A stretch of 64,000 nucleotides of DNA, taken from contig OY763326.1 in assembly GCA_963667285.1 (NCBI GenBank), forward strand, positions 4,152,030-4,216,029, given 5' to 3'. Within the stretch, counting starts at the first letter, position 1. Each line of letters begins with the position of its first letter. Of the stretch, positions 33,916 through 35,795 are shown piece after piece. Below the pieces are notes generated by a model, which saw only the letters and a list, made by a program, of their open reading frames with translations, had not been told where the DNA came from and did no database searches. Position numbers and translations under genes: made by a program. The DNA is from Alphaproteobacteria bacterium. Its GTDB lineage: Bacteria; Pseudomonadota; Alphaproteobacteria; MPNO01.

Positions 33916-34716
33916 ATGGCCGAGATTCACCCCACGGCGATCGTGGAGTCGGGGGCCGAGCTGGGCGAAGGAGTCGTCGTCGGCCCTTACTGCACCGTCG
34001 CCCCCGAAGCCGAGCTGCACGATGGCGTCCGGCTGGTCTCGCACGTGGTGGTCGCCGGCCGTACGGTGATCGGCGCCGAAACCCGCGTCTACCCCTTTGC
34101 CTCCATAGGAACCCCGCCGCAGGATCTCAAATTCAGGGGCGAGCCGTCCCGGCTGGAGATCGGCACCGGCAACATCATCCGTGAATACGTCACCATGAAC
34201 CCGGGGACCGAGGGCGGCGGCATGCTGACCCGGGTCGGGGATAACGGCCTGTTCATGGTGGGGGCCCACGTAGCCCATGACTGCCGGGTCGGGAACCACG
34301 TTATCCTTGCCAACAACGCGACCCTGGGCGGTCACGTCGCCGTCGGCGATTTCGCGATCATCGGCGGGCTGGCCGCGGTCCACCAGCATTGCCGGATCGG
34401 CGCGCATGCGATCATCGGCGGGGTGTCCGCGGTGGTCCAGGACGTCATCCCATACGGATCCGCCGCGGGCGATCGCGCCCGGCTCGTCGGCCTCAACGTG
34501 GTGGGGCTTCGCCGCCGGGACTTCCCGCGCAACGAAATCCAGGCGCTTCGCACCGCCTACCGGCTGTTGTTCGCCGAAGAAGGCACGCTCTCCGAACGGC
34601 TGGAGGATGTGGCGCGGATGTATGAGGACAACCGGCCGGTGATGGACATCGTGGCGTTCATCCGCACCGATTCGACCCGCGCCATCTGTCAACCCAAGAC
34701 GGGCAATGAGCCCTAG
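33916..34716 (+). CDS. lpxA: UDP-N-acetylglucosamine acyltransferase
   Basis: IHPTAIV, PQDLKF, HVAHDC, GLNVVGLRRR. Confidence 0.97.
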   Translation: MAEIHPTAIVESGAELGEGVVVGPYCTVAPEAELHDGVRLVSHVVVAGRTVIGAETRVYPFASIGTPPQDLKFRGEPSRLEIGTGNIIREYVTMNPGTEGGGMLTRVGDNGLFMVGAHVAHDCRVGNHVILANNATLGGHVAVGDFAIIGGLAAVHQHCRIGAHAIIGGVSAVVQDVIPYGSAAGDRARLVGLNVVGLRRRDFPRNEIQALRTAYRLLFAEEGTLSERLEDVARMYEDNRPVMDIVAFIRTDSTRAICQPKTGNEP

Positions 34717-34984
34717 CCCGCATTTCCCGCCAGGGTCACGGCCTGCGTCGCGCCCGGGCGTTCGTCCCGCCAGGAGCGGGCCGAAGAGCGTAGCGGGGAC
34801 TACGGTCAAGGCCCGCGACGCAGCGGGCGGGCGCCCGGGCGCGACCCGGAGGGCGGCGCTGTCCGGCCGACAGGGTGCGTCGAGGCGCTTGCCCGATGTC
34901 CCCGCATCGCGCCGCGCGCCTCTCCTGCCCTGTCGGCCGGACAGCGCCGCGCAGGCCATGACCCTGGCGGGAAATGCGGGCTAG
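34713..34984. mobile_element. Non-autonomous palindromic element (MITE/RPE-like), 268 bp net, flanked by duplicated CTAG
   Basis: 35-bp TIRs 34713-34747 and 34950-34984 (1 mismatch); deleting one CTAG plus the interior restores ATG AGC CCT AGG ATC GGG GTT (MSPRIGVVAG), a normal lpxI start. Confidence 0.9.
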
Positions 34985-35795
34985 GATCGGGGTTGTCGCC
35001 GGCGCCGGCGACATGCCCGACCGGGTGATCGCGGCATGCCGGGAGCAGGGGCGCGATCCCTTCGTCGTCGGGTTGAAGGATCAGGCCTGCCCGGCGTCTT
35101 TCTCCCGGCCGCCCGACGCCTGGATCCGCCTCGGCGAAGCGGGGAAGGGCGTCGATCTCCTCAAAGCCGCAGGGGCGAAGGAGGTCGTTCTCGTCGGCGG
35201 CGTCAACAGGCCGCCGCTTCGTTCGCTGCGCCCCGATGCCTGGACGGCGCGCCTCCTGCTGCGCGTCGGACGGTCCTATTACCGCGACGGCTCGGTTCTG
35301 AGCGCGATCGCCGCGGCGCTCGAAGCGGAGGGTCTCCGGGTCGTGGCGCCGGAGAGCTTCGCCGCTTCCCTGGCCGCCGAGGCGCGCGCCTATAGCGCAC
35401 GCGCGCCCGACGCGGCGGAACGCGGCGACATCGCGCGCGGCTTCGACGTGGCCCGCGCCCTTGGCTCCCTCGATGTCGGCCAGGCCGTCATCGTCCAGCG
35501 GGAGCAGGTGATCGGGGTTGAGGCGGCGGAGGGGACGGATGCGCTCATCGAACGCTGCGCGGCGCTGCTCTCTCCGGGCGAGGGGGGTGTGCTGGTCAAG
35601 GCCTGCAAGCCGGGGCAGGACATCCGAATCGACCTGCCGACGATCGGGCCGCGCACCGTCTCCGGTGCGGCCCGGGCGGGGCTCGCGGGCATCGCCGTGG
35701 GGGCGGGCAGGGCGCTGATCCTCGACAGCCAGGAGGTGACGCGTCTGGCCGATGCCGCCGGCATGTTCGTCATCGGAATCGGCGAGACGGGGTGA
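34974..35795 (+). CDS. lpxI: UDP-2,3-diacylglucosamine pyrophosphatase LpxI (start codon donated by the inserted element)
   Basis: IGVVAGAG, LDVGQAV, VEAAEGTDALI, QDIRIDLPTIG; between lpxA and lpxB. Confidence 0.92.
   Translation: MRARIGVVAGAGDMPDRVIAACREQGRDPFVVGLKDQACPASFSRPPDAWIRLGEAGKGVDLLKAAGAKEVVLVGGVNRPPLRSLRPDAWTARLLLRVGRSYYRDGSVLSAIAAALEAEGLRVVAPESFAASLAAEARAYSARAPDAAERGDIARGFDVARALGSLDVGQAVIVQREQVIGVEAAEGTDALIERCAALLSPGEGGVLVKACKPGQDIRIDLPTIGPRTVSGAARAGLAGIAVGAGRALILDSQEVTRLADAAGMFVIGIGETG

What the first reader, a model, noticed from the sequence alone, without database searches (positions are those of the whole stretch)
34713..34984. Two-armed palindromic element carrying one 52-nt structural motif on each strand, with internal covariation
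Seen: 35-bp TIRs close a junction with two long arms. Arm A core (34771-34822) is cagga-GCGGGCC-gaagag-CGTAG-cgggga-CTACG-gtcaa-GGCCCGC-gacgca. The reverse complement of arm B core (34876-34927) is cagga-GAGGCGC-gcggcg-CGATG-cgggga-CATCG-ggcaa-GCGCCTC-gacgca. They align ungapped at 38/52. The apical loop and outer internal-loop strands are identical, and all 10 stem differences are compensatory (5 swapped base pairs). Inference: the fold and loop sequences are under selection, while stem divergence stops the arms zipping into one duplex. Each single strand would then display exactly one copy of the motif, as expected for a strand-independent ssDNA/RNA signal read by a protein. The TAG ends and purine-rich internal loops recall Rickettsia palindromic elements; I do not recognise this double-arm design as described.
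Basis: partly seen in the sequence, partly recalled or inferred. Interest (0 to 1): 0.88.

Follow-up and report, generated by a model that had tools for sequence, protein, structure and literature searches.

The report
Two-armed MITE with mirrored hairpin module
This is one copy of a small non-coding mobile element, inserted exactly at the stop codon of lpxA, whose two internal hairpins carry the same conserved folded motif on opposite strands, a design shared by related elements across many alphaproteobacteria and not found in the literature searched.

Summary
Window 34713-34984 is a 272-bp element with 34/35-complementary terminal inverted repeats, two self-folding arms and a 52-nt core that matches the reverse complement of the other arm at 38/52; 10 of the 14 differences are 5 swapped stem pairs.

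It is a MITE. The genome holds 38 full-length copies. They end in CTAG with a TA duplication, and four congeners have an unoccupied CTAG at this lpxA/lpxI junction. The genome's own IS630-family elements use the same CTAG target, but no transposase gene bounded by this element's ends was found.

The core ("M") is a cargo module shared by about 270-bp MITEs with at least three different end classes. A covariance model finds it in 21 of 78 genomes of the order and in 16 of 150 other sampled families of the class. Paired cores were always arranged + then - (59 of 59).

Stems covary (98% of cells paired; 15 of 20 pairs changed on both sides). G·U outnumbers A·C 124 to 11 on the M strand, so one single strand is under selection.

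What reads M is unknown. No Rfam family matches and none of my text searches found a description. It is a new variant of a known kind.

The parts
34713..34984 (.). Whole element, 272 bp: a non-autonomous MITE of TIR class 1
   Evidence: 38 full-length copies at 86-100% identity in the genome. Y-shaped fold on both strands. Consensus fold of 57 class-1 elements has 111 pairs, 49 of them with compensated changes.
34713..34746 (.). Left terminal inverted repeat, the 5' half of the closing stem
   Evidence: 34/35 complementary to the right end. TIR variants among copies are compensated at alignment columns 15/17 with 280/282, 21-22 with 275-276, 30 with 267, and 9 with 288.
34951..34984 (.). Right terminal inverted repeat, the 3' half of the closing stem
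34714..34715 (.). Left copy of the duplicated TA, inside CTAG
   Evidence: The empty site in G001, G006, G007 and G011 reads ..CCCTAG|GATCGG... Copies with CTAG...CTAC, GTAG...CTAG and CTAG...CTAA fit a TA duplication in an NTAN target.
34982..34983 (.). Right copy of the duplicated TA
34747..34845 (+). Arm A, a long hairpin with M on the + strand
   Evidence: The lower stem has conserved U·G pairs on this strand: columns 50-121, 51-120 and 55-117.
34765..34828 (+). Motif M, + strand copy: 64-nt model match, 52-nt core at 34771-34822
   Evidence: R1 match at 89.1 bits (G000:C1:4186794-4186857). Covariation.
34846..34852 (.). Central linker with a 2-bp mini-hairpin. It carries a 24-nt insert in 7 of 38 copies.
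34853..34950 (-). Arm B, a long hairpin with M on the - strand. Its base is a perfect 23-bp stem.
   Evidence: repeat I3: 34853-34875 / 34928-34950, 100% complementary.
34870..34933 (-). Motif M, - strand copy: 64-nt model match, 52-nt core at 34876-34927
   Evidence: R1 match at 86.9 bits (G000:C1:4186899-4186962).
34714..34716 (+). TAG stop codon of the lpxA-like ORF (33916-34716), lying inside the element's terminal CTAG
   Evidence: Pfam Hexapep + Acetyltransf_11.
34974..34976 (+). ATG inside the right TIR that opens the lpxI-like ORF (34974-35795)
   Evidence: The LpxI_N profile starts at residue 4 of this ORF. Using this ATG as the start codon is an inference.

Best explanation
[quoted passage not shown] It inserted at the CTAG that holds the lpxA stop codon, and it separates lpxA from lpxI.

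Its interior is a conserved chassis. A closing stem formed by the inverted ends carries two self-folding arms. Each arm bears the same 52-64-nt hairpin module, M, on the strand that reads 5'->3' inward from the nearer end. Either strand, or a transcript from either direction, therefore reads end - M - linker - anti-M - end.

Shown here:
- mobility and the target site;
- the fold;
- compensated stem evolution;
- the mirrored arrangement in every paired case;
- the same chassis under at least three unrelated end classes across many alphaproteobacterial families;
- a strand bias (G·U tolerated, A·C not), which means the M strand is selected as a single strand.

Inferred:
- The ends are cut and pasted by an IS630-family transposase supplied in trans. 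None is identified for this end class.
- M is a recognition hairpin. Its unpaired bases are near-invariant, including candidate G·A pairs flanking the 7-bp stem. It is read on a single strand, most likely in RNA, because these elements sit at gene 3' ends and inside operons and so must be co-transcribed.
- Selection acts on lineages that keep spreading (transposition competence and/or tolerance of new insertions) and not on each resident copy.
- Self-folding arms with diverged stems keep the element from being one long perfect palindrome.
For: Copies and ends:
- 38 full copies plus fragments.
- CTAG at the left end in 32 of 38 copies, at the right end in 27 of 38, and at both ends in 23 of 38. 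The end variants fit a TA duplication.

Insertion site:
- Unoccupied CTAG at the orthologous junction in G001, G006, G007 and G011.
- CTAG is rare: 1,281 sites against 64,651 TA sites. CTAG targeting is therefore specific.
- The genome's own DDE_3 (IS630-family) elements IS-A (10 copies) and IS-C (5 copies) are all bounded by C-TA-G. So are IS630 elements in congeners.
- Related two-arm MITEs carry IS630-like ends. The L091 end shares its first 13 nt with IS-C.

Fold:
- z about -16 on both strands.
- The Y fold is 47 kcal/mol better than the best zipped duplex.

Covariation:
- 22 cores: 98.2% of cells paired, 15 of 20 pairs changed on both sides, 0 of 500 shuffles reach this, slid controls 30-42% paired.
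- 57 whole elements: 111 pairs, 49 compensated.

Strand bias:
- In 124 distinct cores there are 132 G·U against 43 A·C. Without the weak 2-bp inner helix the count is 124 against 11.
- Near-invariant unpaired bases: A10 117/124, G12 122, G23 121, G29 119, C35 122, A66 123, G68 122.

Arrangement and spread:
- 59 of 59 pairs within 200 nt are + then -, with modal spacing 105 nt.
- M found in 21 of 78 genomes of the order and in 16 of 150 other sampled families of the class (15 of 149 without the unpublished G117).
- Named hosts include Inquilinus, Defluviicoccus, Rhizomicrobium and Afifella.
- Three end classes with constant length (260-300 bp) and 69-75% interior identity.

Level of selection:
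- Variants shared by 2 or more copies keep pairing in 243 of 270 cells. Private variants break the pair in 20 of 27 cases.

Gene context:
- 19 of 76 element ends coincide with a flanking ORF's stop codon.
Against: - No transposase gene bounded by this end class was found. I looked in the own genome, in 26 of the 59 DDE_3 matches in the genus (those with loci, excluding own-genome loci) and in 80 outside loci.
- No two copies are identical (the best pair is 99%), so recent activity in this genome is not shown.
- There is no direct evidence of transcription, processing or protein binding. The only RNA libraries holding pieces are metatranscriptome contigs of other copies.
- RNA versus ssDNA is unresolved, because G·T is also the mildest DNA mismatch.
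- Private mutations are not significantly rarer in paired columns than in unpaired ones: 27 in 228 against 8 in 44, p = 0.32. Resident copies therefore show no sign of purifying selection, which fits a host-level RNA function poorly.
- Alignments A2 and A3 were fitted to the model and lean towards its structure.
- Copies are related, so counts overstate the number of independent events.
- The pattern used for the collection scan fixed some paired bases.
Confidence: 0.6

Rival explanations
1. The same MITE, but M works in DNA. It would be a hairpin on transiently single-stranded DNA (for example the lagging-strand template) that recruits a host factor or the transposase and so promotes excision or integration. 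RNA would be irrelevant.
For: - Constraint is seen on shared (propagating) variants but not on private ones.
- The chassis is kept while the ends are exchanged among at least three classes, as expected for something that helps mobility in general.
- Each strand has one M whichever way the fork passes.
- The element folds the same way with DNA parameters, at -141 kcal/mol.
Against: - IS630/Tc1-mariner transposition is a double-strand cut-and-paste with no known single-strand step (general knowledge, recalled).
- A cruciform would need both strands to fold, yet A·C mismatches are tolerated on the anti-M strand.
- No transposase partner is identified.
Confidence: 0.2
2. There is no function. The hairpins are kept perfect by mutation, through template switching within quasi-palindromes or gene conversion between arms and copies. 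The apparent covariation would be a by-product of being a palindromic repeat.
For: - Palindromic repeats are prone to such correction (general knowledge, recalled).
- Compensated variants come as shared haplotypes, and chimeric copies exist, for example c1071075, c5245485 and c5502652.
- Private mutations decay freely.
Against: - Correction should act alike on both strands, yet G·U exceeds A·C by 124 to 11.
- It does not explain near-invariant unpaired bases over many families.
- It does not explain the fixed + then - arrangement in 59 of 59 cases.
- It does not explain why the arms stay different from each other while each stays self-complementary.
Confidence: 0.08
3. A bidirectional transcription terminator or RNA 3'-end stabiliser spread by transposition, in the way REP/BIME and ERIC elements act on mRNA ends. 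M would simply be a very stable hairpin.
For: - 19 of 76 ends lie at a stop codon of a flanking ORF.
- 13 of the 25 copies with ORFs called on both sides lie between convergent ORFs.
- The fold is extremely stable.
Against: - No T-run terminator and no promoter were found in the element.
- This copy lies inside the fabZ-lpxA-lpxI-lpxB cluster, where termination would cut off lpxI and lpxB.
- Stability alone does not need conserved loop bases.
Confidence: 0.07
4. A REP/BIME-type repeat moved by a REP-associated tyrosine (HUH) transposase, or the end hairpins of an IS200/IS605 element.
For: GC-rich hairpins in alternating orientation. One stem reads CGTAG...CTACG, which recalls the GTAG head of REPs (a recalled feature).
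Against: - No Y1_Tnp match in the complete genome, while the control genomes ring.
- 35-bp TIRs and a TA duplication are present.
- The GTAG is only a stem variant; other cores have CGATG or CGTAC.
Confidence: 0.02

Closest known systems
bcr1 of the Bacillus cereus group (as described in passages of PMC3184786)
   Same: A small dispersed repeat flanked by direct repeats. [quoted passage not shown]
   Different: Found in Firmicutes and flanked by 5-bp direct repeats. I recall its size as about 155 bp. Those passages report no mirrored shared motif on the two strands and no exchange of ends. No sequence comparison was made here.
CIR (Caulobacter CcrM-associated intergenic repeats) and Brucella Bru-RS1/2 (passages of PMC2229807; the original paper, Chen & Shapiro 2003, is not held)
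   Same: Alphaproteobacterial intergenic repeats conserved between genera. They have TA at the termini and an RNA fold with two arms joined by a linker. Bru-RS repeats are preferred targets of IS711, which duplicates TA at YTAR (PMC2266754 passages). Here likewise IS-A and IS-B sit at the element's CTAG tips.
   Different: CIRs are about 110 bp, listed as lacking TIRs, and defined by a GANTC site in a hairpin loop. This element is 272 bp, has 35-bp TIRs and no GANTC. Sequence relatedness could not be tested because no CIR or Bru-RS sequence was available.
Correia/NEMIS elements of Neisseria and RUP of Streptococcus pneumoniae (table and passages in PMC2229807)
   Same: TIR-bounded MITEs with TA at the termini and highly paired transcripts. 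RUP is proposed to be moved by an IS630-family transposase.
   Different: They fold as one stem-loop formed by end-to-end pairing, without independent arms, and have no shared internal module under different ends. They are about 100-155 bp long.
IS630-family insertion sequences of this genome (IS-A, IS-C)
   Same: The same CTAG target with TA duplication. MITEs of end class 2 that carry the same chassis share the terminal TAGAGC... sequence with them.
   Different: They encode a DDE_3 transposase, are about 1,055-1,060 bp long and carry no M. Their ends do not resemble the class-1 ends of the window's element beyond TAG.
Rickettsia palindromic elements
   Same: Alphaproteobacterial palindromic repeats with some MITE traits (table in PMC2229807).
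   Different: RPEs are listed with 12-bp TIRs and are often found in frame within genes. No sequence or model comparison was made here, so the likeness is general only.

Membership tests
Bacterial MITE (non-autonomous DNA transposon) | Short and without a transposase gene | tested here: met
   The element is 272 bp. The only ORFs across it are two mirror-image 92-aa frames typical of GC-rich DNA. No DDE_3 or Y1_Tnp match overlaps any copy.
Bacterial MITE (non-autonomous DNA transposon) | Terminal inverted repeats | tested here: met
   34/35 complementary, and 38/42 over 42 nt. Conserved in 57 elements.
Bacterial MITE (non-autonomous DNA transposon) | Target-site duplication | tested here: met
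   TA within CTAG. The empty sites contrast with the filled site, and the end variants CTAC, GTAG and CTAA fit. A 4-bp CTAG duplication is not excluded for most copies.
Bacterial MITE (non-autonomous DNA transposon) | Many dispersed copies and insertion polymorphism between relatives | tested here: met
   38 full copies. The element is present in 10 of 11 other species of the genus. The lpxA/lpxI site is empty in 4 congeners.
IS630/Tc1-mariner-derived MITE | Ends matching an autonomous IS630-family element that supplies the transposase | tested here: not met
   No DDE_3 element with class-1 ends was found among 17 own-genome matches, 26 genus loci or 80 outside loci. Class-2 relatives do share 13 terminal nt with IS-C. 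For the window's class the link therefore rests on the TA/CTAG target and the shared chassis.
IS630/Tc1-mariner-derived MITE | TA duplication, with CTAG preferred in bacteria (a recalled property of IS630) | tested here: met
   The same target is used by this genome's DDE_3 elements.
REP/BIME with RAYT | A HUH (Y1) transposase gene in the genome, and no TIR or TSD | tested here: not met
   No PF01797 match in a 100% complete genome. TIRs and a TSD are present.
CIR / Bru-RS | GANTC (CcrM site) exposed in a hairpin loop; about 110 bp; no TIR (as summarised in PMC2229807) | tested here: not met
   No GANTC in the element. It is 272 bp with TIRs. The two-arm-plus-linker fold is shared.
CIR / Bru-RS | Sequence similarity to CIR1-4 or Bru-RS1/2 | not testable with these tools
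   The original paper is not held and no sequence was available. Named Caulobacter or Brucella genomes cannot be searched with a custom model.
Any Rfam 15 family | A covariance-model match | tested here: not met
   Only two chance-level matches, both outside the element (E about 0.5), in 34300-35400 at E <= 1.
Rickettsia palindromic elements | Sequence or profile similarity to RPE families | not tested
   No RPE sequence or model was used.

The most novel reading that the evidence does not exclude
M is a portable recognition hairpin for a conserved alphaproteobacterial protein that binds single-stranded nucleic acid. The mirrored two-arm chassis makes it independent of orientation. At least three lineages of IS630-type MITEs have kept this chassis while changing their ends. 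They deposit it precisely at TAG stop codons and operon junctions. That would make it a mobile, strand-symmetric post-transcriptional (or single-strand DNA) signal and not just a folded piece of junk.
Probability: 0.25. Interest if true: 0.8.

Novelty: new variant of a known kind. Interest (0 to 1): 0.6.

Why it matters
MITEs with folded transcripts are known. Three things are unusual here:
- one internal hairpin module is kept, with near-invariant loop bases and heavy stem covariation, under at least three unrelated kinds of ends and in about a tenth of the sampled alphaproteobacterial families;
- the module always appears once per strand in mirror orientation;
- there is strand-specific evidence (G·U but not A·C) that one single strand is what is selected.

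This makes a concrete, testable candidate for a widespread protein-binding RNA or ssDNA motif that is absent from Rfam.

The family also shows how a TA/CTAG-targeting element can insert at TAG stop codons without changing the upstream protein. In this copy it may even supply a new start codon for the downstream gene.

For genome annotation, the family explains assembly breaks. It also accounts for about 6% of this genome's rare CTAG sites (59 of 1,281 for the full-length copies alone). Its tips are a preferred landing site for other insertion sequences.

Tried and rejected
Autonomous partner:
- A 28-nt end probe with up to 6 mismatches gave 100 hits. All were MITE ends, short derivatives or solo ends.
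- ORF listing beside 15 solo ends was uninformative in this GC-rich DNA.
- The ends of IS-A and IS-C differ from the element's ends.
- 26 IS630 loci from congeners carry other ends.
- tblastn with IS-A and IS-C proteins found no transposase beside M in 100 loci.
- No class-1 end pairs 0.6-3 kb apart were found in the loci.

Other searches:
- Plasmid collection: no match for the class-1 element or for a class-2 element from a Rhizobium MAG.
- Rfam: nothing in the element.
- HUH/RAYT: none.
- Promoter/terminator scan: none inside the element.

Expression:
- The only RNA libraries with any words of the stretch were two metatranscriptomes (share 0.08-0.09).
- Their contigs cover pieces of the repeat with other flanks, so they are other copies, and they do not show transcription.
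- DNA contigs of two related organisms break at both element boundaries, as expected for a repeat. No contig joined across an empty site. The one skip joint (34347 to 35472) has 9 other letters between the sides and a 21-nt side, and I do not interpret it.

Scripts:
- A hard-constraint fold was mis-specified and returned 0. I replaced it with explicit evaluation and duplexfold.
- brought no answer from the script machine. I repeated the question with blastn.

Literature:
- Four end strings searched anywhere in text gave 0 papers.
- Keyword searches brought only general MITE reviews plus the CIR, bcr1 and Bru-RS comparators.
- Chen & Shapiro 2003 is not held.
- Supplementary files were not consulted.

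Recalled, not tested here:
- CsrA-type GGA reading of the loops. I considered it and dropped it because the apical loop is variable.
- A k-turn reading of the basal internal loop, which does not fit the pairing.
- The IS630 CTAG/TA specificity, VSP repair as the cause of CTAG loss, and the instability of long palindromes.

Full report
**1. The observation**

- The repeat finder reports terminal arms of 42 nt at 93% complementarity, inner arms 34771-34822 / 34876-34927 at 73%, and a perfect 23-nt stem (34853-34875 / 34928-34950) under arm B.
- Counting from 34713, the ends are 34/35 complementary (38/42 over 42 nt). Arm A and the reverse complement of arm B agree at 38 of 52 positions.
- Ten of the 14 differences are five swapped stem pairs. 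Two of the four loop differences (A-T to C-G) look like a sixth compensated pair.
- As RNA both strands fold into the same Y: a closing stem of about 34 bp, arm A, a 2-bp mini-hairpin and arm B. Energies are -240.2 and -239.3 kcal/mol, z about -16, and no shuffle of 200 folds as well. DNA parameters give the same shape at about -141 kcal/mol.
- The Y is 47 kcal/mol better than the best duplex between the two halves (-193.6) and far better than the strict mirror hairpin (-111.9). A perfect palindrome of this length would reach -350.

**2. It is a mobile repeat**

The window lies in a complete 5.68-Mb genome.
- blastn finds 53 places, 38 of them full-length copies of 245-296 bp at 86-100% identity.
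- There are also one-arm derivatives of about 167-180 bp, end-only remnants, and one copy split by a 5.4-kb insertion.
- Seven of the 38 copies carry a 24-nt insert in the central linker.
- 32 of 38 left ends and 27 of 38 right ends read CTAG, and 23 copies have it at both ends. Copies reading CTAG...CTAC, GTAG...CTAG or CTAG...CTAA fit a TA duplication in an NTAN target that is usually CTAG.
- The flanking genes are fabZ, lpxA, lpxI and lpxB by Pfam.
- At the orthologous lpxA/lpxI junction, four congeners (G001, G006, G007, G011) have a single unoccupied CTAG..CCCTAG|GATCGG...
- CTAG is very rare in this genome: 1,281 sites against 16,084 expected from base composition, and 64,651 TA sites. 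The target choice is specific.

**3. What moves it**

- The genome has 17 Pfam DDE_3 (IS630-family) matches.
- The two multi-copy elements are IS-A (1,055 bp, 10 copies, one truncated) and IS-C (about 1,060 bp, 5 copies). Both are bounded by C-TA-G in every full copy. IS630 elements in congeners are too. The same target is thus used by resident IS630-family elements.
- Their ends (TAGAGC...) do not match the element's ends (TAGCCCGCATTTC...).
- I found no transposase gene between such ends in this genome, in 26 of the 59 DDE_3 matches in the genus (those with loci, excluding own-genome loci), or in 80 loci from other taxa. The transposase for this end class is unidentified.
- There is no HUH (Y1_Tnp) gene in the genome. 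That removes REP/RAYT and IS200/IS605 mechanisms.

**4. The core is a module shared by different MITEs**

The element occurs in 10 of 11 other species of the genus, with weaker matches in other genera. Looking at those weak matches changed the picture.
- A contig of G036, from another family of the order, holds a 269-bp two-arm element with quite different ends (CTAGAGCCTTGTCC...). It carries the same core in both arms in opposite orientation, with stems differing by compensated changes.
- I aligned 22 cores (A1). With the structure, 98.2% of cells pair and 15 of 20 pairs show changes on both sides. None of 500 shuffles reaches this, and slid controls give 30-42% paired.
- A covariance model (R1) finds 82 matches in the own genome, all inside copies or fragments of this element.
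- R1 finds matches in 21 of 78 genomes of the order: families f1 14/19, f5 2/5, f3 4/25, f4 0/26, f2 0/2.
- It finds matches in 16 of 150 other genomes drawn one per family from the class. That is 15 of 149 without the unpublished G117.
Named hosts include Inquilinus limosus, Defluviicoccus, Rhizomicrobium, Afifella pfennigii, Hyphomicrobiaceae, Kiloniellales and many alphaproteobacterial MAGs.

**5. Architecture**

- R1 gave 144 matches on 80 of those loci.
- Every pair of matches within 200 nt, 59 of 59, is + then -. Spacing ranges from 97 to 150 nt with a mode of 105, the same as in the window. Of 26 unpaired matches, 14 lie at a locus edge.
- The five two-arm elements found within the order have the same arrangement.
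- Because + then - is unchanged by turning the element over, each strand reads end - M - linker - anti-M - end.
- Fifty-five distinct elements of 233-325 bp (most 260-300) fall into at least three end classes: the window's (CTAGCCCGSATTTCTCACC), an IS630-like class (CTAGAGC...; the L091 end shares 13 nt with IS-C), and TATACCAAGG... All are flanked by TA.
- The interior is 69-75% identical between classes and 94% identical to a Defluviicoccus copy of the same class.
- These copies are related and many come from the same assemblies, so 59 of 59 shows a conserved design, not 59 independent events.

**6. Which strand, and at what level selection acts**

- In 124 distinct cores read on the M strand, the stems hold 2,209 Watson-Crick cells, 132 G·U and 43 A·C. 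Leaving out the doubtful 2-bp inner helix, the count is 124 G·U against 11 A·C.
- In 57 whole class-1 elements, the lower stem of arm A has conserved U·G pairs on the M strand. These would be mismatches on the other strand.
- Strand assignment rests on the loops, not on the pairs. The model does favour G·U somewhat, but most hits score far above threshold.
- This bias argues against a purely double-stranded role, a cruciform role, or mutation-driven palindrome correction. It argues for selection of the M strand as a single strand.
- Unpaired bases are strongly conserved: A10, G12, G23, G29, C35, A66 and G68 in 117-123 of 124 cores. The G12/A66 and G23/A55 positions could form G·A pairs flanking the 7-bp stem. 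That is my reading, not a test.
- Within this genome, variants shared by two or more copies keep pairing in 243 of 270 cells. Private variants break the pair in 20 of 27 cases and are not rarer per paired column than per unpaired column (27 in 228 against 8 in 44, p = 0.32).
- With these small numbers, constraint appears in the lineages that spread and not in resident copies.

**7. Gene context**

- With a crude ORF caller (stop-to-stop at least 100 codons, GC3 at least 0.85), 19 of 76 element ends, in 17 of 38 copies, coincide with the stop codon of a flanking ORF.
- 13 of the 25 copies with ORFs called on both sides lie between convergent ORFs.
- Insertion at the TA of C-TA-G keeps a TAG stop intact, as it does here for lpxA (34714-34716).
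- In the empty sites the lpxI frame starts at an ATG overlapping the end of lpxA. In this genome the right end of the element supplies an in-frame ATG (34974), and the LpxI_N profile begins at residue 4 of that ORF.
- That ATG pairs with CAT 5-7 nt past the lpxA stop in the closing stem. A ribosome terminating at the stop could therefore unmask it. This is an inference about this copy only.
- No promoter or T-run terminator is predicted in the element.

**8. Comparison with what is known**

- Rfam 15 has no match.
- Text searches for the end sequences found nothing. Keyword searches returned only general reviews.
- From passages of those reviews, the nearest described things are two.
  - bcr1 of Bacillus: two independent stem-loops kept by compensatory changes (PMC3184786).
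  - The alphaproteobacterial CIR/Bru-RS repeats: two arms joined by a linker and TA at the termini, but about 110 bp, no TIR, and defined by a GANTC site in a loop (PMC2229807).
- This element has no GANTC.
- The original CIR paper is not held, so sequence relatedness stays open.
- Bru-RS repeats are preferred targets of IS711, which duplicates TA at YTAR (PMC2266754). This parallels section 9.
- I file the element as a MITE of the TA/CTAG-targeting kind, with the defining link to an autonomous IS630 partner not met for its end class. It is a new variant: a conserved mirrored cargo module under exchangeable ends.

**9. Seen in passing**

- IS-B is an IS4-family element (Nterm_IS4 + DDE_Tnp_1) of 1,462 bp with 15 identical copies. 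It makes 10-bp duplications centred on CTAG (NNNCTAGNNN). In 11 of 15 cases it sits exactly at a tip of this MITE.
- Three IS-A copies also abut MITE tips.
- The closest congeners, G003 and G010, read ..CAACCCAAATCGGGAAATGCGGGTTAG|GATC.. at the lpxA/lpxI junction. This matches the last 18 nt of the MITE (16/18) better than the ancestral empty site (11/18). It suggests loss of the element by deletion between a flank repeat and the right end (my comparison).
- Four right ends read CTGG and three left ends read CCAG.

**10. Verdict**

A protein reader of the motif remains a hypothesis. I put 0.6 on the explanation as stated: a MITE plus a single-strand recognition hairpin, most likely read in RNA. 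The DNA-level variant gets 0.2 and non-functional or other readings share the rest.

Noticed in passing
G000:C1:3407228-3408689 (L009:36-1497), plus 14 further copies listed: A 1,462-bp IS4-family element (Pfam Nterm_IS4 + DDE_Tnp_1) with 15 identical copies. It makes 10-bp duplications centred on CTAG (for example GCGCTAGCCC). 11 of the 15 copies sit exactly at a tip of the MITE, which looks like site-specific targeting of the MITE end.
   Followed up: partly
G000:C1 around 1339487, 2060112 and 2299932 (L031, L035, L036): IS-A is a 1,055-bp IS630-family element (10 copies, one truncated) bounded by C-TA-G. Three copies are inserted at the terminal CTAG of a MITE copy. IS-C (5 copies, about 1,060 bp) uses the same target.
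   Followed up: partly
L060 and L061, about 1470-1500 (G003 and G010, lpxA/lpxI junction): The two closest congeners lack the MITE but read TCGGGAAATGCGGGTTAG (TTAA in G010) before GATCGG. This matches the MITE's right end at 16/18 and the ancestral empty site at 11/18. It suggests the element was lost by deletion between CGGGCAATG in the flank and CGGGAAATG in the end, leaving a MITE-derived lpxA tail and lpxI start.
   Followed up: partly
window 34974-34976 with 34721-34723: The ATG that opens the lpxI ORF lies in the right TIR and pairs with CAT just past the lpxA stop in the closing stem. In the empty sites of congeners a different ATG, overlapping the end of lpxA, is in the same frame. 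Coupling by ribosome unwinding is possible but untested.
   Followed up: no
whole genome G000: CTAG occurs 1,281 times against 16,084 expected from base composition. Four MITE right ends read CTGG and three left ends read CCAG. These are the changes expected if CTAG is being eroded (VSP-type repair is a recalled idea, not tested).
   Followed up: no
7 copies in G000, e.g. 2108190-2108485 and 4105659-4105954: A 24-nt insert (GAGCCTGCCCTGAGCTTGTCGAAG) in the central linker may lengthen the mini-hairpin into a short third arm (by eye; not folded). Contigs of a related organism show the same insert as a loose end at 34851.
   Followed up: no
G000:C1:1125873-1126039, 1841675-1841841, 2349258-2349437; 2357993 onward: One-arm derivatives of about 167-180 bp (ends plus arm A) and an end-only mini form of about 70 nt. 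Arm-B-only forms occur in G003 and G012. The family is modular.
   Followed up: partly
window 34706-34984 (+) and 34736-35014 (-): Two mirror-image open frames of 92 aa run through the element on opposite strands. They are probably an effect of GC-rich, stop-poor sequence and were not examined further.
   Followed up: no
runs X1, X2 laid on window 34200-35500: Two metatranscriptome libraries hold short contigs covering parts of the repeat with other flanks. Relatives of the element are therefore present in those samples' nucleic acid, but transcription is not shown.
   Followed up: partly
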